Shown in pieces: positions 10,056 to 61,342 of a DNA stretch of 64,000 nucleotides. The notes below the pieces were generated by a model that worked only from the letters and a program-made list of their open reading frames with translations, ran no database searches and had not been told where the DNA came from. This stretch comes from a phage: assembly GCA_017676145.1 (NCBI GenBank), contig GCA_017676145.1_3628.1; one strand, written 5' to 3'. Both the position numbers and the translations under genes were made by a program. Every line of letters begins with the position of its first letter. Position 1 is the first letter of the stretch.

Positions 10056-10322
10056 TTAAGCTTTTTGCTCTTCGTTTTTAACGTGGTCAGGGTGCTGGCA
10101 ACCCCACCGGAGCGAGATGAATTTGCTAATAAGCTGGGGGCAAGCTACTGAAGGTGCGTATATCCACGCATACCATTCAGGAAGCGTATCATTGTACCCC
10201 ATATGAATAAACACCCCAGTCATCACTGCCATGCCTATGTTTGACCATAGCTTAGATTGGGACACTTTTGTAGGGTCATCAGATGCTGCAACCAGTCCCC
10301 ATAAAAACTGAGTTAATTTCAT
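10056..10322 (-). CDS. small membrane protein (88 aa)
   Basis: Hydrophobic segments (LWGLVAA, IGMAVMTGVFI); lies immediately downstream of fibre paralogue A. Confidence 0.4.
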   Translation of the reverse strand: MKLTQFLWGLVAASDDPTKVSQSKLWSNIGMAVMTGVFIHMGYNDTLPEWYAWIYAPSVACPQLISKFISLRWGCQHPDHVKNEEQKA

Positions 10323-10331
10323 TTACCCTCT

Positions 10332-11378
10332 TTAAGCATAAGATATGGTGATCCATTGACCGTTTACAAATTTTTGAATGGCTCCAGTCCAATAGTCGCC
10401 CTGATACGGGTGTTTATATGCGTAATTGCCGGAGCACATTACATGCCCAGGGTATACTCTTGATTCTCTGTAGGTGGTTCTGAAACGGTTTGCTATCCTT
10501 ACATCTTCAACACCTCTACTAGGCATAGGAATAGTAAGGTTACCACTACTGTCTGCGCTACTACCATTTACCCTGCGGACCACGTTTCTTCCACCAACTG
10601 TTGCATATTGACCCCTGGCGGTTTTATCGTTACAATCTACTCTTCCACCTATTTGAGCGCTGCCGCAGGATTGTTGCCCATTAACAGTGGATCTAGGTAT
10701 CGTTACCGCATTAGCATTTGCAGAGGAGCTTTTTGCATCATTGCATTCAAGATTTCCTTGGATAGCCAGTCTTGCACGGTTGGCAGTTATAGCATTGAGC
10801 TTCATAGCCGAAAACACAGGCTGCCCACCAGAAGGTTGAAATCTCCAACGGAAACCGTCTATTTGGTGAGAGGGATCATCAAGGTCTGTGCCGTCAGCAC
10901 CACCGATGTTGTCCATAATCCAGAAATCCATCATCGTCTTGTCTGGAGTTATGGTGGTGTATATCGCCGCACTATCTGTTGACGCGGATGCAAACTCGAT
11001 TCTTTGAAGACCTAAAGTTTGAGTCTGGATCATTGTGTCTCCAGCCTTGTCAACATAAAGGTCATCCATTTCTTCAGGCGAGTATACATTGAGAACTTGA
11101 CGTGCAGCAGCTTTGTCTGGAACGTCTGCCAGATTATTAGTGACCCTTAAGAATCTATTATCCCATCCTGGGACAACATCTTCTGTTAAATGCTTTAGCC
11201 ACGCAGAGAGCATGTGGAGTTCAAAGTTAACAACTTCACATGCTATCCTTTGTGTCATATCCCAACCTTTCAATCTCTCTTCTTTGTTCGGTTGAGATTT
11301 GTTCAACTCTCCTGTATTTTCAAGCACAACATCCTGATTGGCCCAAATATCAAGAGGGATAACTGGTTTAGTCATCAC
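10332..11378 (-). CDS. tail fibre protein, paralogue A (348 aa)
   Basis: Clear paralogue of 12391..13431 (shared PLxIWA N-terminus, GDTM motif, LQRI(E/N)F, FRWRFQP, C-terminal NGQWIT(I/V)(S/N)YA); GDTM(T)G-type motif common in phage tail fibres. Confidence 0.55.
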   Translation of the reverse strand: MMTKPVIPLDIWANQDVVLENTGELNKSQPNKEERLKGWDMTQRIACEVVNFELHMLSAWLKHLTEDVVPGWDNRFLRVTNNLADVPDKAAARQVLNVYSPEEMDDLYVDKAGDTMIQTQTLGLQRIEFASASTDSAAIYTTITPDKTMMDFWIMDNIGGADGTDLDDPSHQIDGFRWRFQPSGGQPVFSAMKLNAITANRARLAIQGNLECNDAKSSSANANAVTIPRSTVNGQQSCGSAQIGGRVDCNDKTARGQYATVGGRNVVRRVNGSSADSSGNLTIPMPSRGVEDVRIANRFRTTYRESRVYPGHVMCSGNYAYKHPYQGDYWTGAIQKFVNGQWITISYA

Positions 11379-11465
11379 GTTCTCCTGAGAAAATTCCTTA
11401 AGGACTATTTTAACACTTTAGAGAACAAAATGCAAGAACGGCATCCTTGCCGTTCTGACCTTTGT

Positions 11466-11780
11466 TTACCTTTTACTATGCTCTACAAGCATGTGTAAAA
11501 TCTTTTGCACATCGGCTCTGATACCGGAGACATCTGTCCTGACATCTTGCTTAAGGTCGTTAATATCGGCCTCTAGCTTACTTAACCGGGTCTCAATAAT
11601 GGAATCAAGTCTATCTTTTGTAACCATGCTATTTTTCACTAAAATGAGGTCTTTCTCCAGCTCATCCAACCTCTTGGAAATGCCTTTCCATTTGGTGTGC
11701 CACTGGTTGAAAGCCCATACACAGATCGGGACAACGGTACCCATGCAGATACCGTACAATGCCGCCAAATCCAACTCCAC
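11466..11780 (-). CDS. membrane-anchored coiled-coil protein (104 aa)
   Basis: N-terminal hydrophobic helix (ALYGICMGTVVPICVWAF) followed by heptad-like charged region. Confidence 0.4.
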   Translation of the reverse strand: MELDLAALYGICMGTVVPICVWAFNQWHTKWKGISKRLDELEKDLILVKNSMVTKDRLDSIIETRLSKLEADINDLKQDVRTDVSGIRADVQKILHMLVEHSKR

Positions 11781-11791
11781 AACACCTCCTC

Positions 11792-12376
11792 TTAGAGGGT
11801 AGGTCGTTCCGGGAAGAAAATGTCAGGGGCTTTAGATGTATCTATTTCAAGAAGTTTTACCCTGTACATTTTCAAATCTCTGATGTTGCGTTTTTGGTCA
11901 TCAGTGAGATCGTATTCAAGGTCAATCATGTCTTGATAGGCACCAATTCTAGCAGTAGCCCAAGCAAGTTCTGTCTCTATGACACCCTCTGCCTGTTGAA
12001 CAAAGAATTCATTGTCTGTGACAAATTCATCACCAACTAAACGCAAAGCGTCGTGGTGGAGCATAATGTTTTCTGGTACCTCTTCTTTTTTGGCGATAAC
12101 CACACGAAGACCTGGAGCAGGCCACAAGGCATCAGGTTCTTCTGTAGATGTCTTAAGAATACCCTTCTCGTCAACAAGTAGGAAGATACAGCCTGGATTT
12201 TCTTGTCGTAGTGTTCGTGATTGCACATACCAATCGCCATCATCATTACGTAAAAAATATCCAGTGTATGCCGTATAATCCTCAACCTCCTGAGGAGTCA
12301 GCTCCTTGGTACCTTTGTTGGTGTGGTATTCGCCAGATCCCGGTTGGTAAAGCTTAAACTCTTGAAGTATTTTCAT
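11792..12376 (-). CDS. tail fibre assembly protein (lambda Tfa-like chaperone)
   Basis: 194 aa; C-terminal KMYRVKLLEIDTSKAPDIFFPERP closely parallels the lambda Tfa C-terminus ([21 protein letters not shown], recalled from memory); sits directly downstream of a fibre gene. Confidence 0.7.
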   Translation of the reverse strand: MKILQEFKLYQPGSGEYHTNKGTKELTPQEVEDYTAYTGYFLRNDDGDWYVQSRTLRQENPGCIFLLVDEKGILKTSTEEPDALWPAPGLRVVIAKKEEVPENIMLHHDALRLVGDEFVTDNEFFVQQAEGVIETELAWATARIGAYQDMIDLEYDLTDDQKRNIRDLKMYRVKLLEIDTSKAPDIFFPERPTL

Positions 12377-12390
12377 GCTAGTCCTCCGAT

Positions 12391-13431
12391 CTACGCATAA
12401 TTAACAGTGATCCATTGACCATTTACAAGTTTCTGTAAAGGCCCTGCCCAGTAGGTTGAACCACGCATCTCTTTTTTATCACCAAAATGCCAACCTGTGA
12501 CAACGTAGCCGTTGCGAACTGGAGATTCAGAAACACCATCAACAAGTCTTGCGCCGATTCTGATATCCTGTACACCTGTCTGCGGGATGGTGATCGTTAC
12601 ATCCCCGTTGCCGTTAGCCGTCACTCCATTCACAGAGCGCACCACATTTCTGTTACCGACAACACAATGCTGGCTTCTTACAACCATACTGTCACAACTT
12701 GCACCGCCATTGACATATACTGACCCAGCCGTCAACTGACTAGCTACATTGCAGTTGGTGAATGTTGCTGTGCTGCTAATGGTGAGGTTATTACATCGCA
12801 TGTTATCAACAACTTCAACATTGCCCACCACTTTCAACAACGCACGATTAGCCGTGATTGCGTTCAGATACATCAAAGTGAACTCTGGGTTAATGTCAGG
12901 CTGAGTTGGCTGAAATCTCCAACGGAACGCATCTACTGTAGAGGTGCCACCATCATCAAACGCCCCAATATTATCACTTAACCCAAAGTCGAGAGTTGTC
13001 TTATCTGGGCCAATAGTTGTCTCTATCCAAGCCTTATCTGTCTCGGCAGCTTTAAAGTTGATACGTTGCAAACCCAATGGGCCTGTCATTGTATCACCTG
13101 TAACTTTCACATACCTGGCGTCTGCCTCTTCCTTAGTAATAATACCAAGGTTTCTACGGGCAACAGGGATGTTCAAAAGATCACTCAAGTTATTATCACG
13201 TACCAGATAACGGCCTTCTTGAGCGGGGATCTGCTCGTCAGCAATGTATTTTGCCCAAGTCCCGAGCATATTGAAAATATAGTTAAGTTCTTCACAGGAT
13301 GGCTTTTGACCAAGATCCCAACCTTTTCTCCACAAATCATCAATCGGGCGTAGCCTGTTCTGTCTGTGGGTGTTAGGCAGAACCTGATCCTCCTCTGCCC
13401 AAATCTCTAATGGAAAACTAGGTTTTGACAT
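12391..13431 (-). CDS. tail fibre protein, paralogue B (346 aa)
   Basis: Paralogue of 10332..11378; contains VTGDTMTGPLGLQRINF fibre motif. Confidence 0.55.
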   Translation of the reverse strand: MSKPSFPLEIWAEEDQVLPNTHRQNRLRPIDDLWRKGWDLGQKPSCEELNYIFNMLGTWAKYIADEQIPAQEGRYLVRDNNLSDLLNIPVARRNLGIITKEEADARYVKVTGDTMTGPLGLQRINFKAAETDKAWIETTIGPDKTTLDFGLSDNIGAFDDGGTSTVDAFRWRFQPTQPDINPEFTLMYLNAITANRALLKVVGNVEVVDNMRCNNLTISSTATFTNCNVASQLTAGSVYVNGGASCDSMVVRSQHCVVGNRNVVRSVNGVTANGNGDVTITIPQTGVQDIRIGARLVDGVSESPVRNGYVVTGWHFGDKKEMRGSTYWAGPLQKLVNGQWITVNYA

Positions 13432-13443
13432 TTTATCTCCTGA

Positions 13444-15516
13444 TTATGAGAAGTCTGGCGGGACAACATCTTCTACATACCCTTTCAGAGCAACCTGCCC
13501 CATATGGAGCACGGTAGAATCCCTAGCGGTAACAGTGATGCTGTCAGACATTACTTGCGGGTATGCCCACACATACTGTTTTACCTCAGGGTATCTATAC
13601 TCTATGGTTGCCATGTTCCCGCAGATACATCTCCATAAAAATTCTTGGTAATTCCTGGTTGGGTCGTAGCCATATACCGGAGCAAGCTCTTTGCTAGGAA
13701 CGAACCCTGCAAGGTATTGTATTTCAGACGGTTGCCAACCTAACTTAACGATAGGTATGTTTACAGACTCTTTTGCCTTTTCAATACCACCCTGCATCAC
13801 CCAATCGTAGCACTCAGTGCAGAAGAAATCAAGAGCACCTGCTTCCTTTTTATATTGGTCAGCAAGGTTCAGCTTTTGCGTAAGCTCGGTTTCCATAATG
13901 GTCGGGAAAAACAGCAAAGCTGTCATCTGAGCCGATGCAGCGTGTGCTTTTATTGCCTTTGAAATAGCTGCAATACGAGCGCCAAGCTTACCACGACAAA
14001 ATGCTACATACTTGTCATAAACACCGCCAGTTTTAGGATCGTCAATAGTCCCAATGTCTAGTGCATATTCACCAGTCTCATCATAAAACGCCTGTTTTGT
14101 AGGGTAGTCATAAATACAAGGCTTACGAGTATCGGTATTGAACCACCACCACGGTTCACCAATCTGCATAATTACTGGCAGGTTGTTTCTCATAGCGGCT
14201 GATGCAAAATTCTTAAATACTGCAGTAAGGAAATTCATACCCTCTTCAATGGTTGGAGACAAGAGGTAACTACAAGGCGTATAGCCTGTTTTAGCATAGT
14301 TATCGTTCCAATCTCTCTGGGTCCATTCCAACGGACAGGCATCGCTATAAAGCTCAAAGCTTACAGACTGCATAACGTCGAAGTCATGTCGCTTGGCATT
14401 ATACATAAAGTCATCGTGCCATTTATAAGCTGCAGCGTTTAGAGCCCCTGTCCTGTTTATAGACCATTGGGTTCCGGACCATGTGTAATCATAATAATGG
14501 CTCATACCAACATAATGGTTTATGGTTCCGGTATAGCCCAGACGCTTGATATTGCTCACCACCCTTAAAGGAGATACGTTCCACATATCGTCATATGCTG
14601 TGCAGATCCCAACGTCGTGCTCTTTCACCTGGATATTGTTAAGTTGCATCATTTTCCAGCCTGTGTCTGGCTGAAGCAGATCTAGACGCAACTCACACTC
14701 TACATTTTCCGTTCTTGGGTCTGTACTATTACTTACCCAATCTTTAGGCATAAGTGGTATTAGAATCCTTCTCACCTGTCGAGGATCAACACCCATCATG
14801 TTGTTGTTCTGGTCCATCCCGACGCAGTCCTCGAAATCAATATGAATTTCTGCAACATTCTTATCCTCTGAGATGCTGACAGCATATTGAGCTAAAGGAA
14901 CATAGATGATTGTGCCATCAACAAGGTCTACAGTCATAATCATCTTTTCAGGGGTGGAGAAGTTGCTGGCATTGGTTATTGACATTCTGAACCAAAGCTT
15001 GGTGTTTCTCATCTCGTAGTGATCATCAAATCCAATGCCGAAATGGTCATACTTGTCAACTGTTTCCCAAATGCACCCAGCCATGCCTCCATATGTTCTT
15101 GACACTAAACGGTTAATACAGCAGTTATTATCTGCAACAATACAGGTGCTTTCAGTCTGCTGGGTAGTTGTAACCCAATATCTTGGGTGAAACATTCTCT
15201 CCTCAACAGTATCCCAAGATATTCTGTCAAGATTCTCATCTGAAACTATTGTGCATTTCGCTCTTTGTGTTCCAATCATAACCCCTTGAGAGTTTGATGA
15301 AAACTCCATAAAGAAGCTTCTTGGCAACCTGTTTGGCAATTTGTCAACAATTTCTACAGGGATCTCAATACTGGTTGCCCCAACCGGGATAGTTACATCG
15401 CCCTCAACATGATCATAATCTCTACCTGGAACTGCAGTATCCTGAACTGTGCGGTAATGAAACCGTGCAGCCATCGTAGAGTAATCACGGTAAGGTTTAA
15501 AAACAGCTGTTGCCAT
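13444..15516 (-). CDS. virion protein with Calx-beta-like N-terminal domain (690 aa), possible tailspike/enzyme
   Basis: N-terminus GRDYDHVEGDVTIPVGATSIEIPVEIVD resembles the Calx-beta motif; large Trp/Tyr-rich body. Confidence 0.45.
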   Translation of the reverse strand: MATAVFKPYRDYSTMAARFHYRTVQDTAVPGRDYDHVEGDVTIPVGATSIEIPVEIVDKLPNRLPRSFFMEFSSNSQGVMIGTQRAKCTIVSDENLDRISWDTVEERMFHPRYWVTTTQQTESTCIVADNNCCINRLVSRTYGGMAGCIWETVDKYDHFGIGFDDHYEMRNTKLWFRMSITNASNFSTPEKMIMTVDLVDGTIIYVPLAQYAVSISEDKNVAEIHIDFEDCVGMDQNNNMMGVDPRQVRRILIPLMPKDWVSNSTDPRTENVECELRLDLLQPDTGWKMMQLNNIQVKEHDVGICTAYDDMWNVSPLRVVSNIKRLGYTGTINHYVGMSHYYDYTWSGTQWSINRTGALNAAAYKWHDDFMYNAKRHDFDVMQSVSFELYSDACPLEWTQRDWNDNYAKTGYTPCSYLLSPTIEEGMNFLTAVFKNFASAAMRNNLPVIMQIGEPWWWFNTDTRKPCIYDYPTKQAFYDETGEYALDIGTIDDPKTGGVYDKYVAFCRGKLGARIAAISKAIKAHAASAQMTALLFFPTIMETELTQKLNLADQYKKEAGALDFFCTECYDWVMQGGIEKAKESVNIPIVKLGWQPSEIQYLAGFVPSKELAPVYGYDPTRNYQEFLWRCICGNMATIEYRYPEVKQYVWAYPQVMSDSITVTARDSTVLHMGQVALKGYVEDVVPPDFS

Positions 15517-49241: not shown

Positions 49242-49560
49242 CGTTTATGTTCAGGCAAGGTCGCTAGTCTTGCCCCGCCATTTTCAGGCAGCTGCATGTC
49301 TCCATGCAGACCAGACTATATCTTATAAGCTATAACAACAGCTTACCCTCCCGTTTCGAATCGCTTGATTCTACGTCTTTCGACTAGTCGTTGAACGTTC
49401 ATCCTCTCGGATGCTTCGCTGCGGATTATCTAAATCAACACTCTGTTACCATACCTTCGATCTCTCTTCGAAGCCTCTATTATGTTACCATAACAGGTTG
49501 GTGGTGTTAATAATAAAGATTTCCCCGCAATTAGGGAGGTTTTACGAGAGCTACAAATTA
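49242..49560 (-). mobile_element. group I intron 1 in terminase large subunit gene (no ORF)
   Basis: Minus-strand P AATTGCGGGGAA (49521-49532), Q AATCCGCAGC (49418-49427), R GTTCAACGACTA (49385-49396), S GATATAGTC (49316-49324); exon ends GGT followed by TAA, as in T4 td-type introns. Confidence 0.75.
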
Positions 49561-49986
49561 ACCCTCATCGAAGCAAACCATGGTGTACTCAAGCCCTTGA
49601 TGGTTAAGCTTATCTTGGACATACTCCATGTGGCAGTATTTTACAACGGCCCCTTTTTTGCTCCTGTCCCACTTGCCAGTGCTCGGATCAAACCGTGGAA
49701 AAATAAACTTATGATCCTTCTCTCTGAACTTTGGTTTAATGTTTTCAGGCAGATCACTGTAAATAGCTACTGCTTTAGGCCATAGACCTCCTTCACCCTC
49801 CAGCTGCGGGGTTGTTCTTCGGAACATAACCACAGAGCTGTGTGGGTCATCAATAATTTTAAGTGGCATTAGCTGCAAGAGGAACGACTTGCCAGAACCG
49901 GCTGCACCTCCGATCACCAAAATATCTGCATCGTTCTCAAGGATCATCTTCTGCTTTTCAGAACACGGTCCGTAAATCTTAGACAT
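49561..49986 (-). CDS. terminase large subunit, exon 1 (ATPase domain)
   Basis: Walker A GGAAGSGKS and Walker B MVCFDEG; start ATG overlaps the o-spanin stop (TAATG). Confidence 0.75.
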
Positions 49987-50273
49987 TAACCTCTCTCCTT
50001 TGGAAACAGTGTTCTTATATAGTCTTGCAAAATGATCAATTTAGCTCTATCATTACTACAAGACAGGTTATTATCCCTCATAATGCCAGAATTCACCGCA
50101 TCTGGCGCACCTTTCTTCAAAGGGATAGCTTTAGCAGGTGGTTTCATAGCACCCTCGGGAGGTTTAACAATCAACCTTCCTACATCCGGAGGGTCAATCT
50201 TATATTCTTTTTCGACACTTGTCGCACATCCGCACAGCAGTAAGCAAGCAACTAACAATACGGTGGCTCTCAT
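49986..50273 (-). CDS. o-spanin (Rz1-like outer-membrane lipoprotein)
   Basis: Signal peptide with lipobox-like LLLCGC, Pro-rich mature region, 95 aa; 4-nt overlap with upstream i-spanin gene. Confidence 0.6.
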   Translation of the reverse strand: MRATVLLVACLLLCGCATSVEKEYKIDPPDVGRLIVKPPEGAMKPPAKAIPLKKGAPDAVNSGIMRDNNLSCSNDRAKLIILQDYIRTLFPKERG

Positions 50274-50668
50274 CTACCCTCCTGATTAATGCTCTCGTTA
50301 TAGATATCTATAAGCTGGTCAGGTAGTGTTGACTTCTTACCTTCAGGTGATTGGAGGTAGATAATCTGCTTTTCTTTACCTGCCTTCTCAGCCATATTTA
50401 ATTTATCCTGTAAGTCAGAAAGAGATTTTTCAAGGTTTTTAACCTCCTCTGCGTGGCCCATTTTAATTTTGTCGGCCTGCTTTTGTTGTTGGTCAAGGAT
50501 CCGTTCCCACTTTAACTCTGTTGCTGACACACCTTCCTGATAAGCATCATTGAGCTTAGAGTTAAACCAATACACGGCCCCAAGATAAGTCATGCCTATA
50601 GCCGCTGCAAAAACTAAACCTTTTATGATCCCTCTGTATTTACTCATCAATGTTAAAACTGAAATCAT
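50270..50668 (-). CDS. i-spanin (Rz-like)
   Basis: N-terminal transmembrane helix (GLVFAAAIGMTYLGAVYWF) then coiled-coil charged region; followed by the lipoprotein gene. Confidence 0.6.
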   Translation of the reverse strand: MISVLTLMSKYRGIIKGLVFAAAIGMTYLGAVYWFNSKLNDAYQEGVSATELKWERILDQQQKQADKIKMGHAEEVKNLEKSLSDLQDKLNMAEKAGKEKQIIYLQSPEGKKSTLPDQLIDIYNESINQEGR

Positions 50669-60871: not shown

Positions 60872-61342
60872 ATGAAACTTGATAAAAATGTTCAACGAAA
60901 AGCTTTCTTGGATATGATCGCATATTCAGAAGGTACAGATAATGGTAGACAACCTACCAAGGATCGGGGCTACGATGTCATAGTCGGGGGCAAGCTGTTT
61001 AGCGATTACAGTAAGCATCCAGGTGTTTACGTTAAACTAAATGCTAAACTTACCTCCTCTGCTGCTGGGCGTTACCAGATTCTGGAGAAGTTTGCTAAAC
61101 ACTATATGAAACAGTTAGGATTACCAGATTTTGGCCCTACCAGTCAGGACAAGATTGCGTTGCAACTGATCCGTGAGTGTAAGGCGCTCGATGATATTGA
61201 TGAAGGTCGTATTCACCAGGCCATCCATCTTTGCAGATCCCGATGGGCAAGCCTTCCAGGTGCAGGGTACGGTCAGCACGAACAGAAGATCGAAAAGTTG
61301 ATCGAGGTGTTTAAAAAGTCAGGCGGCGTTGTCCTGGATTAA
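60872..61342 (+). CDS. endolysin, lambda R-type lysozyme (lytic transglycosylase)
   Basis: QRKAFLDMIAYSEGTDNGRQ...GYDVIVGG...AGRYQ...WASLPGAGYGQ is near-collinear with lambda R as recalled. Confidence 0.85.
   Translation: MKLDKNVQRKAFLDMIAYSEGTDNGRQPTKDRGYDVIVGGKLFSDYSKHPGVYVKLNAKLTSSAAGRYQILEKFAKHYMKQLGLPDFGPTSQDKIALQLIRECKALDDIDEGRIHQAIHLCRSRWASLPGAGYGQHEQKIEKLIEVFKKSGGVVLD

What the first reader, a model, noticed from the sequence alone, without database searches (positions are those of the whole stretch)
10056..13431. Duplicated tail-fibre cassette with Tfa chaperone and interleaved small membrane proteins
Two paralogous ~347-aa fibre genes share N- and C-terminal blocks but diverge in the middle. 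One is followed by a lambda Tfa-like chaperone and a membrane/coiled-coil protein, the other by an 88-aa membrane protein. The arrangement suggests alternative receptor-binding fibres, with the small membrane proteins as possible co-evolving exclusion factors.
Basis: partly seen in the sequence, partly recalled or inferred. Interest (0 to 1): 0.45.

Follow-up and report, generated by a model that had tools for sequence, protein, structure and literature searches.

The report
Duplicated short tail fibres, likely holin
This is the already-described pair of short tail-fibre genes of an rV5-like E. coli phage; the small membrane genes among them are conserved neighbours that look like the phage's missing lysis (holin-type) genes, not exclusion factors.

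Summary
The window is a Vequintavirus (rV5/FV3-like) genome: 99% identical to phage EPFV3-03/2025 and 98.4% to FV3. The five ORFs are rV5 gp33 to gp29. The two fibres are real paralogues (43% identity, E 5e-95). This was published in 2013 (Kropinski) and 2021 (Maffei, BASEL), with one Tfa chaperone and homology to Mu S/U.

New detail:
- The duplication is confined to the genus Vequintavirus.
- Fibre A (gp33) keeps the ancestral N-terminus and a Mu-S-like tip. Fibre B (gp30) is the derived copy.
- Fibre B has its own late-promoter motif. It sits where relatives carry a ~157-aa polytopic membrane gene.

The small membrane genes are not fibre-linked exclusion factors. Relatives with a single fibre carry them as a contiguous trio. 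They are under strong purifying selection. Their homologues were not detected in CB7 virions.

The 88-aa protein belongs to a family (hhalign 99.3%) that lies between endolysin and Rz/Rz1 spanin genes in Mu-like phages. This phage has a soluble lambda-R-type endolysin, has spanins, and has no identified holin. So gp29 is a plausible holin, as in T4 (37-38-t). The role of the 104-aa protein (N-terminal TMD plus helical hairpin) is less certain. Verdict: a known feature with a modest new functional lead.

The parts
12391..13431 (-). Short tail fibre A (rV5 gp33 homologue, 346 aa). This is the ancestral-type copy.
   Evidence: phrog_4465 E 2e-171. The N-terminal residues 1-108 match the solved phiTE short tail fibre 9cuy, E 1.8e-19. 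The tip residues 286-343 match Mu tail fibre protein S (5yvq/9ki1) residues 440-501, E 4e-6. It is closer than B to the single-copy orthologues in every region. dN/dS is 0.019.
11792..12376 (-). Tail fibre assembly chaperone (rV5 gp32 homologue, 194 aa). It is the only one in the locus.
   Evidence: Pfam PF02413 Caudo_TAP E 1.1e-11 over residues 122-192. phrog_136 E 2e-36. There is no direct PDB sequence hit.
11466..11780 (-). 104-aa membrane-anchored helical-hairpin protein (rV5 gp31 homologue). GTG start with AGGAGG upstream.
   Evidence: TMD at residues 5-23 with K/R on the C-terminal flank, which predicts N-out/C-in. The AF2 model has pLDDT 88 with helices 5-50 and 55-103. phrog_5345, function unknown. 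It lies directly after the Tfa gene in Vequintavirinae, phi92 and Aeromonas phages. hhalign to membrane/coiled-coil proteins of Mu-like lysis cassettes gives 90.7% probability. There is no DUF2730 hit.
11435..11456 (-). Terminator-like hairpin that closes the fibre A-Tfa-gp31 unit.
   Evidence: 9-bp stem with 5 G-C pairs, followed by a T-rich tail. The intergenic fold is -26.6 kcal/mol, z -3.9.
11406..11415 (-). Late-promoter-like motif TGTTAAAATA upstream of fibre B.
   Evidence: TGKTAAAATA occurs 5 times in the window, always on the minus strand, against 0.5 expected. The sequence is the same as P030 in Kropinski 2013 Table S4.
10332..11375 (-). Short tail fibre B (rV5 gp30 homologue, 347 aa from the ATG). 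This is the derived paralogue.
   Evidence: phrog_4465 E 1e-162. The N-terminus matches 9cuy only at E 2.4e-8, and there is no Mu S match even at E 10. dN/dS is 0.058. A second copy exists only in Vequintavirus genomes. It occupies the position of the ~157-aa polytopic gene of relatives, a gene found in no Vequintavirus record.
10056..10322 (-). 88-aa two-helix membrane protein (rV5 gp29 homologue). It is a candidate holin-type lysis protein.
   Evidence: phrog_1322 E 3e-32. The family has 68 representatives among 1.84 billion proteins. hhalign to lysis-cassette members gives 99.3% probability, E 4e-20. BLASTP against the Pseudomonas phage Bise protein gives E 4e-10. The homologues' neighbours are endolysins and spanins. 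The gene is tightly packed between fibre B and the next fibre gene.
60872..61342 (+). Endolysin (rV5 gp89 homologue). This is context: a soluble lambda-R-type enzyme that would need a holin.
   Evidence: phmmer against lambda lysozyme 1AM7 gives E 2.2e-56, aligned from residue 4. There is no N-terminal hydrophobic extension.
49986..50668 (-). i-spanin (50270-50668) and o-spanin (49986-50273) next to terL. This is context: the spanin role is already filled.
   Evidence: One ORF has an N-terminal TMD. The other has the lipobox LLCGC. The same assignment is made for rV5, PVP-SE1 and CB7 in PMC7344957.

Best explanation
The locus is the short-tail-fibre module of an rV5-like myophage.

**Fibres (shown or inferred as marked).** Fibre A (gp33) is the orthologue of the single Mu-S-type short fibre of related phages (phi92 gp147, fibre III). 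It is folded with the help of the adjacent Tfa chaperone (gp32). In the Vequintavirus lineage the fibre gene was duplicated. The copy, fibre B (gp30), acquired its own late promoter. It sits where relatives carry a ~157-aa polytopic membrane gene. It has diverged mainly in its baseplate-attachment N-terminus and in two distal patches, including the tip. It keeps the extreme C-terminal NGQWIT motif. I infer from that motif that one chaperone serves both fibres, and that the virion carries two short-fibre species with different LPS-core specificities.

**Small membrane genes.** These are not fibre accessories or exclusion factors. They are an older, conserved, non-virion set embedded in the late fibre operon.
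- gp29 (88 aa) belongs to a two-helix membrane protein family that occupies the holin position of lysis cassettes in Mu-like phages. It most likely acts as the holin, or a holin-type lysis timer, that releases this phage's soluble lambda-R-type endolysin. The arrangement matches T4, where holin gene t follows fibre genes 37-38.
- gp31 (104 aa) is predicted to have an N-out/C-in TMD and a cytoplasmic helical hairpin. It may be a lysis-control partner.

**Sub-confidences:** fibre part 0.85; gp29 as a lysis protein about 0.55-0.6; gp31 as a lysis partner about 0.35.
For: **Identity and prior description**
- The region is 99% identical to phage EPFV3-03/2025 and 98.4% to FV3; annotations are.
- Prior descriptions: Kropinski 2013; Maffei 2021; phi92 gp147 as fibre III.

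**Fibres**
- Paralogy.
- Two copies per genome occur only in Vequintavirus.
- A is closer than B to the orthologues: 50% against 41% to KE22 overall, and 55-57% against 35-42% in the tip. A and B are closest to each other in residues 106-204, at 59%.
- Promoter and hairpin.
- The polytopic gene is absent from Vequintavirus.

**Small genes are conserved, syntenic and non-virion**
- Conservation and synteny.
- In CB7 virion mass spectrometry, the flanking CB7_30, 31, 36 and 37 were detected. CB7_32 to 35 were not.

**gp29 family in lysis cassettes**
- Bise: Mor, M15 endolysin, family member, spanin-like gene.
- Ralstonia YO098_1: family member followed by Rz with an embedded Rz1.
- In IMG/VR loci, at least 28 of 61 upstream neighbours carry peptidoglycan-hydrolase domains of about 7 families.
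- Of 40 downstream ORFs, 31 have an N-terminal TMD and 27 have an overlapping lipobox ORF.
- Homology: hhalign 99.3%.
- UniRef names one relative 'Holin'.

**The phage needs a holin**
- The endolysin is soluble and the spanins are elsewhere.
- The literature reports no confirmed holin.
- T4 precedent, genes 37-38-t.

**gp31**
- Structure model.
- hhalign 90.7% to cassette proteins, of which 2 of 12 hit DUF2730.
- Architectural analogy to LysF1a/LysF1b.
Against: - No experiment bears on gp29 or gp31.
- gp29's second helix is only weakly hydrophobic, its AF2 model is poor (pLDDT 60), and Kropinski's TMHMM/Phobius scan did not flag it.
- gp29 is 50 kb from the endolysin in this genome.
- It hits no Pfam holin family; only 2 of 44 relatives hit DUF2644 weakly.
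- Other holin candidates have been proposed: rV5 gp129 and CB7_82.
- In one phage (Stenotrophomonas Marzo) a family member sits among replication genes.
- The gp31 link rests on a coiled-coil-prone profile match. hhalign to Mu gp25 gives 1% and Foldseek found nothing.
- Presence of both fibres in virions is not firmly documented. The rV5 MS table as held lists 19 proteins, none with the masses of gp29 to gp33, although the main text names gp30, gp32 and gp33.
- Distinct receptor specificity for A and B is an inference.
Confidence: 0.6

Rival explanations
1. First reader's model. The 104-aa and 88-aa proteins are superinfection-exclusion factors, each co-evolving with its neighbouring fibre and blocking the receptor or DNA entry for that fibre type. 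Models are Cor, Llp, and T4 Imm/Sp.
For: Exclusion genes often sit beside receptor-binding genes, as with T5 llp and T1/phi80 cor (my own knowledge). Both proteins are small membrane proteins. PHROGs files phrog_1322 under 'moron'.
Against: Both genes are present and adjacent in relatives with a single and very different fibre. They show almost no amino-acid change while the fibres differ. There is no lipobox and no PADLOC hit. The 88-aa gene lies behind a late promoter motif inside a fibre operon, which is late for exclusion. Family members sit in lysis cassettes.
Confidence: 0.08
2. The small membrane proteins are morphogenetic helpers. They would act as membrane-tethered factors that assist fibre or baseplate assembly or fibre attachment. 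gp31 would be a coiled-coil co-chaperone, by analogy with T4 gp57A.
For: gp31 homologues always directly follow the Tfa gene, even in phi92-like phages where the gp29 homologue lies elsewhere. Expression would be late and operonic. A helical coiled-coil fold is predicted. The proteins were not detected in CB7 virions, as expected for chaperones.
Against: There is no homology to any known chaperone. A membrane anchor is unusual for fibre chaperones. The gp29 family occurs in small Mu-like phages next to endolysins and far from fibre genes.
Confidence: 0.17
3. The two fibres are not alternative receptor binders. Either they co-assemble as heterotrimers, or fibre B is a redundant or structural copy with no distinct specificity.
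For: The central block (residues 106-204) is 59% identical and the C-terminal motif is shared. There is only one chaperone. Maffei 2021 notes little allelic variation in either copy and a single LPS-core dependence (waaC and waaG mutants not infected) for all tested Vequintavirinae.
Against: B is under purifying selection (dN/dS 0.058) and is 94.8% identical or more in the Vequintavirus records listed, so it is not decaying. Its N-terminus and tip are the most diverged parts, which fits a different docking site and ligand. The two genes lie in separate transcription units.
Confidence: 0.12

Closest known systems
rV5 gp33-gp32-gp31-gp30-gp29 (Kropinski 2013) and the 'two paralogous short tail fibres plus chaperone' locus of Vequintavirinae (Maffei 2021, BASEL)
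   Same: These are the same genes. Gene order, lengths and about 95-99% DNA identity all match. The paralogy (42-43%) and the Tfa are already reported, and the P030 late promoter is already listed.
   Different: Nothing differs in the fibres. The literature leaves gp29 unannotated and calls gp31 only 'membrane protein, 1 TMD'. The link to lysis cassettes, and the replacement of the polytopic gene by fibre B, do not appear in the papers I read.
Mu tail fibre S with chaperone U (PDB 5YVQ/9KI1), and the single short fibres of phi92 (gp147, fibre III) and phiTE (gp236, PDB 9CUY)
   Same: Fibre A shares the N-terminal attachment domain with phiTE gp236 and the distal tip with Mu S. A Caudo_TAP chaperone follows the fibre gene.
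   Different: There are two tandem, co-directional copies, not Mu's invertible S/U and S'/U' segment. No inverted repeats or invertase were found. Fibre B has lost detectable similarity to the Mu S tip. There is only one chaperone.
T4 late fibre operon 37-38-t, in which the holin gene follows the fibre and its assembly factor
   Same: A lysis-timing membrane protein gene is placed at the end of a late tail-fibre gene string.
   Different: T4 T is a 218-aa class III holin with a large periplasmic domain and is unrelated in sequence. A role for gp29 is only inferred.
Lysis cassettes of Mu-like phages: endolysin, small two-helix protein, Rz/Rz1, DUF2730-type protein. Includes Mu releasin gp25, PMC9239132.
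   Same: The 88-aa protein is homologous (hhalign 99.3%) to the two-helix protein of these cassettes. The 104-aa protein shares size, predicted N-out/C-in topology and a cytoplasmic helical domain with the DUF2730-type proteins.
   Different: In this phage the genes are 50 kb from the endolysin and sit in a fibre operon. The endolysin is soluble, not a SAR type. The 104-aa protein does not hit DUF2730.
Mycobacteriophage LysF1a/LysF1b holin-like pair (PMC13056207)
   Same: The architectures match: an 88-aa protein with two TMDs, plus a protein with a single N-terminal TMD predicted to be N-out/C-in.
   Different: There is no sequence relationship. The host has a Gram-positive-type envelope. Those genes lie in a classical lysis cassette.

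Membership tests
Mu S/U-type short tail fibre plus Tfa module | N-terminal baseplate-attachment domain homologous to a solved short tail fibre | tested here: met
   phmmer against 9cuy (phiTE short tail fibre): fibre A E 1.8e-19 over residues 1-108; fibre B E 2.4e-8 over residues 1-83.
Mu S/U-type short tail fibre plus Tfa module | C-terminal receptor-binding tip homologous to Mu S | tested here: inconclusive
   Fibre A matches 5yvq residues 440-501 at E 4e-6 (E 3e-4 with the tip alone). Fibre B has no match at E up to 10, although it keeps the terminal QKxVNGQWIT motif.
Mu S/U-type short tail fibre plus Tfa module | Caudo_TAP chaperone gene directly downstream of the fibre gene | tested here: met
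   PF02413 E 1.1e-11 for 11792-12376, which follows fibre A. Fibre B has no chaperone gene of its own.
Mu S/U-type short tail fibre plus Tfa module | Alternative fibre sets switched by an invertible segment (Mu G, P1 C) | tested here: not met
   Both copies are on the same strand. There are no flanking inverted repeats and only short direct similarities at 73-86% identity.
Holin (class II-like) | Small protein with membrane helices and a hydrophilic, charged C-terminus | tested here: met
   88 aa. Hydrophobic helices lie at about residues 25-43 and 51-66, the second one weak. The loop NDTLPE is acidic, K/R residues flank the helices, and the C-terminus is polar.
Holin (class II-like) | Gene clustered with endolysin and spanin genes | tested here: not met
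   In this genome the endolysin is at 60.9 kb and the spanins at 50 kb. The feature is met for homologues: at least 28 of 61 upstream neighbours are peptidoglycan hydrolases, and 27 of 40 downstream neighbours form Rz/Rz1-like pairs.
Holin (class II-like) | Late expression | tested here: inconclusive
   A late-promoter-like motif lies upstream of fibre B, and the genes are tightly packed. There are no transcript data.
Holin (class II-like) | Timed lethal membrane permeabilisation that releases endolysin, triggerable by energy poisons | not testable with these tools
   This needs expression and complementation experiments.
DUF2730 releasin (Mu gp25) | Match to Pfam PF10805, or homology to Mu gp25 | tested here: not met
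   There is no DUF2730 hit for the 104-aa protein or its homologues. hhalign against Mu gp25 plus a relative gives 1% probability. The only link is indirect: 90.7% to cassette proteins, of which 2 of 12 hit DUF2730.
DUF2730 releasin (Mu gp25) | About 100 aa, with an N-terminal TMD (N-out/C-in) and a cytoplasmic helical domain | tested here: met
   TMD at residues 5-23, an acidic N-terminus, a KWK..KR flank after the TMD, and helices 5-50 and 55-103. The topology is predicted only.
DUF2730 releasin (Mu gp25) | [quoted passage not shown] | tested here: not met
   The endolysin is 50 kb away and is a soluble lambda-R type.
Two-component spanin (Rz/Rz1) | i-spanin with N-in TMD and a periplasmic coiled coil, paired with a lipoprotein o-spanin | tested here: not met
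   The spanin pair is at 49986-50668. The 104-aa protein has the opposite predicted topology and no lipoprotein partner.
Receptor-linked superinfection exclusion proteins (Cor, Llp, T4 Imm/Sp) | Lipoprotein signal or similarity to a known exclusion or defence protein, with a patchy distribution that tracks the receptor-binding protein | tested here: not met
   There is no lipobox and no PADLOC, Pfam or NCBIfam hit. The genes are conserved across genera with different fibres and are nearly invariant within the genus. Direct comparison with Imm and Sp sequences was not done.

The most novel reading that the evidence does not exclude
The late tail-fibre operon of rV5-like phages (Vequintavirinae, phi92-like and Aeromonas relatives) hides their long-unidentified holin system. 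gp29 (88 aa, phrog_1322/DUF2644-like) would be the holin for the soluble lambda-R-type endolysin. gp31 (104 aa) would be a membrane-tethered cytoplasmic partner distantly related to the DUF2730 releasin-type proteins that accompany the same holin family in Mu-like lysis cassettes. Lysis timing would then be transcriptionally tied to the last step of virion assembly. In Vequintavirus the duplication of the short fibre was inserted into this lysis module, displacing its polytopic third member.
Probability: 0.45. Interest if true: 0.45.

Novelty: already known. Interest (0 to 1): 0.28.

Why it matters
rV5-like phages are widely used as candidates for therapy and biocontrol. Knowing which of their two short fibres binds which LPS-core structure bears on host-range prediction and engineering, but that question has been posed in the literature since 2013.

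The added value here is a testable candidate for the holin that several papers on this subfamily say they could not find. If it holds, a few hundred 'hypothetical/membrane protein' annotations could be corrected, and lysis timing in these phages could be manipulated.

The analysis also shows that the small genes should not be read as exclusion factors.

Tried and rejected
- **Profile libraries.** Pfam, NCBIfam and PADLOC scans of the 88-aa, 104-aa and ~157-aa proteins gave nothing above noise.
- **i-spanin idea for the 104-aa protein.** Rejected. The spanins are next to terL, and the predicted topology is the opposite.
- **Direct releasin membership.** Rejected. There is no DUF2730 hit, and hhalign to Mu gp25 gives 1%. 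jackhmmer with Mu gp25 and hmmsearch with the 104-aa family over all fetched loci found no bridging sequences.
- **Fold search.** Foldseek of the 104-aa model against BFVD gave no hit at E <= 0.001. The 88-aa AF2 model was too poor (pLDDT 60) to search.
- **Locus search.** The search for related loci with the broad alignment A2 failed because no conserved stretch was found. It worked with the narrower A3.
- **Invertible-segment or recent gene-conversion idea.** Rejected. There are no inverted repeats, and only short DNA similarities at 73-86%.
- **Virion proteomics for gp29 to gp33 in rV5.** Inconclusive. Table S5 lists 19 proteins and none with these masses, although the main text names gp30, gp32 and gp33.
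- **phi92 paper.** The 2012 paper (PMC3457257) is not held.
- **Not attempted.** I did not predict trimeric fibre structures, because a monomer AF2 model of an intertwined trimer would not be informative.

Full report
**What the window is.** The region 10056-13431 is 99.0% identical to Escherichia phage EPFV3-03/2025 and 98.4% to FV3. It is 90% identical or more to 117 Vequintavirus (rV5-like) records. The ORFs map one-to-one onto rV5 genes:
- gp33: fibre A, 12391-13431
- gp32: Tfa, 11792-12376
- gp31: 104 aa, 11466-11780
- gp30: fibre B, 10332-11375
- gp29: 88 aa, 10056-10322

All are on the minus strand. They lie between the baseplate and lateral-fibre genes gp36-gp34 and the large fibres gp28 and gp27.

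**The observation.**
- The paralogy is real: 43% identity over the full length, E 5e-95. Both fibres match phrog_4465 end to end.
- The chaperone is a Caudo_TAP protein (PF02413, E 1e-11).
The best-conserved block is central: residues 106-204 are 59% identical. The N-terminal 105 residues are 38% identical. The segment 205-245 is 21% identical. The distal 291-346 is 44% identical, with the last 14 residues matching at 11 of 14.
- The small ORFs are genuine genes. Against phage DrSchubert the 104-aa gene shows 13 synonymous and 1 non-synonymous differences. The 88-aa gene shows 7 and 0.

**It is already described.**
- Kropinski et al. 2013 (PMC3606486) reported gp30 and gp33 as similar fibres (42.3% identity) and suggested that two LPS chemotypes may be recognised. 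They also reported gp32 as the assembly protein, gp31 as a 1-TMD membrane protein, and a late promoter P030 in front of gp30.
- Maffei et al. 2021 (PMC8594841) state that Vequintavirinae sensu stricto encode two paralogous short tail fibres and a chaperone. These are homologous to the single locus of phi92-like phages and to Mu GpS/GpU. They note little allelic variation.
- A 2026 cryo-EM study assigns the phi92 orthologue gp147 to fibre III, the downward-pointing fibre proposed to mediate irreversible binding.

**What the tools add on the fibres.**
- A second copy is present only in Vequintavirus genomes. All other relatives have one copy.
- Fibre A is closer than fibre B to the single-copy orthologues in every region: 50% against 41% to Seunavirus KE22 overall, and 55-57% against 35-42% in the tip. 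A and B are closest to each other in the central block. This points to a duplication within this lineage, followed by faster change in B. dN/dS is 0.058 for B and 0.019 for A.
- Fibre A's N-terminus matches the solved phiTE short tail fibre (9cuy, E 1.8e-19). Its tip matches the last ~60 residues of Mu S (5yvq, E 4e-6).
- Fibre B matches the N-terminal domain only weakly (E 2.4e-8) and does not match the Mu S tip at all.
- Both fibres keep the terminal QKxVNGQWIT motif, which is also seen in phiTE, KE22 and phi92-type fibres. I take this, as inference, to be compatible with one chaperone serving both.
- There is no Mu-like inversion switch. Both copies are co-directional, there are no flanking inverted repeats, and DNA similarity is limited to short stretches at 73-86% identity.
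- The two fibres lie in different late units. A terminator-like hairpin (11435-11456) follows gp31. The late motif TGTTAAAATA (11406-11415) precedes fibre B. The motif TGKTAAAATA occurs five times in the window, always on the minus strand, against 0.5 expected.

**The small membrane genes are older than the duplication.** In phiTE, CB7, Seunavirus KE22, Mydovirus KpS8 and Aeromonas 2L372D the order is:

wedge, baseplate, single fibre, Tfa, ~104-aa protein, ~157-aa polytopic protein, ~88-aa protein, next fibre.

- In Vequintavirus, fibre B with its promoter stands exactly where the polytopic gene is. That gene is found in 110 phage records, none of them a Vequintavirus.
- In phi92-like phages the 88-aa homologue (gene 144) lies upstream of the wedge gene, and the 104-aa homologue (gene 149) still follows the Tfa gene.
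- So the genes are not 'interleaved' partners of individual fibres.
- In CB7 virion mass spectrometry the flanking CB7_30, 31, 36 and 37 were detected. CB7_32 (Tfa) and CB7_33 to 35 (the three membrane proteins) were not.

**What the 88-aa protein is likely to be.**
- It has no Pfam, NCBIfam or PADLOC match.
- A profile search of 1.84 billion representatives found a small family of 68 clusters with the motif SHTKLWSNIG. All 44 aligned members fall in phrog_1322.
- Distant members occur in Mu-like phages:
  - In Pseudomonas phage Bise the order is Mor, M15 peptidase endolysin, family member, spanin-like ORF, 92-aa TMD/coiled-coil protein, small terminase.
  - In Ralstonia phage YO098_1 the family member is followed by an Rz gene with an embedded lipobox Rz1.
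- A scan of IMG/VR returned 80 loci. Of 61 non-redundant upstream neighbours, at least 28 carry peptidoglycan-hydrolase domains: VanY/Peptidase_M15_4 in 15, Amidase_2 in 5, Peptidase_M15_3 in 4, and GH108, Amidase_3, GH19 and CHAP in one each.
- Of 40 downstream ORFs of 120 aa or more, 31 have an N-terminal TMD. Of these 40, 27 have an overlapping, proline-rich lipoprotein ORF in another frame.
- That is the classical holin position, combined mosaically with many endolysin types.
- Homology to the rV5-type protein is solid: hhalign 99.3%, E 4e-20; BLASTP E 4e-10.
- UniRef labels one relative 'Holin'. No source labels rV5 gp29 so.

**The phage needs a holin.**
- Its endolysin (60872-61342) is a full-length lambda-R homologue with no N-terminal signal-anchor (1AM7, E 2e-56).
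- Its spanins lie next to terL.
- Four papers on this subfamily say the holin is unidentified or offer only guesses.
- A holin at the end of a late fibre gene string has a textbook precedent in T4 (37, 38, t).

**Caveats on the holin reading.**
- The second helix is weakly hydrophobic.
- The AF2 model is poor.
- There is no clustering with the endolysin in this genome.
- One family member sits among replication genes.
- There are no experiments.

**The 104-aa protein.**
- It has one N-terminal TMD, with basic residues on the C-terminal side. This predicts an N-out/C-in topology.
- AF2 gives a confident helical hairpin (pLDDT 88; helices 5-50 and 55-103).
- It is not a spanin.
- It is not a detectable DUF2730 member.
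- In the same Mu-like cassettes that carry the 88-aa family, proteins of the same size and architecture lie one or two genes after the spanins.
- Their profile matches the 104-aa family at 90.7% probability (E 1e-6, 63 columns). Two of twelve hit DUF2730, the family of the Mu releasin (PMC9239132).
- Coiled-coil composition can inflate such scores, so I treat this as a lead.
- The pair also mirrors, in architecture only, the mycobacteriophage LysF1a/LysF1b holin-like pair.
- A role as a fibre-assembly helper remains a fair rival, because the gene is glued to the Tfa gene across families.

**Verdict.** The exclusion-factor idea is not supported. The most useful new point is a testable candidate for the missing holin system of rV5-like phages, together with the finding that fibre B replaced one member of that conserved membrane-gene trio. 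Interest is low to moderate.

Noticed in passing
window 10056-13431 against GenBank records such as MG065655 (Campylobacter phage C2): Sixteen records named 'Campylobacter phage', with host C. jejuni, are about 95% identical to this E. coli Vequintavirus region. The host labels look doubtful.
   Followed up: no
window 11466-11780 (-); FV3 locus L001 10411-10689: RefSeq FV3 annotates the gp31 homologue as 92 aa, which removes most of the N-terminal TMD. A GTG start with AGGAGG 4 nt upstream gives 104 aa and matches the homologues in other genera.
   Followed up: partly
window 13444-15516 (-): The gp34 homologue combines a Calx-beta domain with NCTSP_N and the 'non-contractile tail sheath protein' TIM barrel (PF23845, E 2e-79). 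This domain set is named after siphophage-type tails, yet here it sits in a myovirus baseplate operon.
   Followed up: no
window 11406, 17738, 23249, 37388, 40909 (all minus strand): Five copies of the late-promoter-like motif TGKTAAAATA occur, against 0.5 expected. Those at 11406 and 17738 lie upstream of late gene blocks; the sequence at 11406 is Kropinski's P030 and his list also has a P036.
   Followed up: partly
window 49558-50668 (-): A 142-aa terminase large-subunit fragment abuts the o-spanin and i-spanin genes. Kropinski 2013 reports terL split into three segments with a homing endonuclease.
   Followed up: no
Kropinski 2013 Table S5 (rV5 virion MS): The main text lists gp30, gp32 and gp33 among the detected proteins. 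The supplementary table as held contains 19 proteins, none with their masses.
   Followed up: partly
L010 (Ralstonia phage YO098_1) 2062-2544, and similar ~160-aa ORFs upstream of the holin-like gene: A 160-aa ORF with an NNPGNIRW motif occupies the endolysin slot but has no Pfam match at E <= 0.01. It may be an undescribed endolysin family.
   Followed up: no
L008 (Stenotrophomonas phage Marzo) 3908-4219: A member of the 88-aa family stands alone, on the opposite strand, between the DNA polymerase and dUTPase genes of a T4-like replication module. This context fits neither fibres nor a lysis cassette.
   Followed up: no
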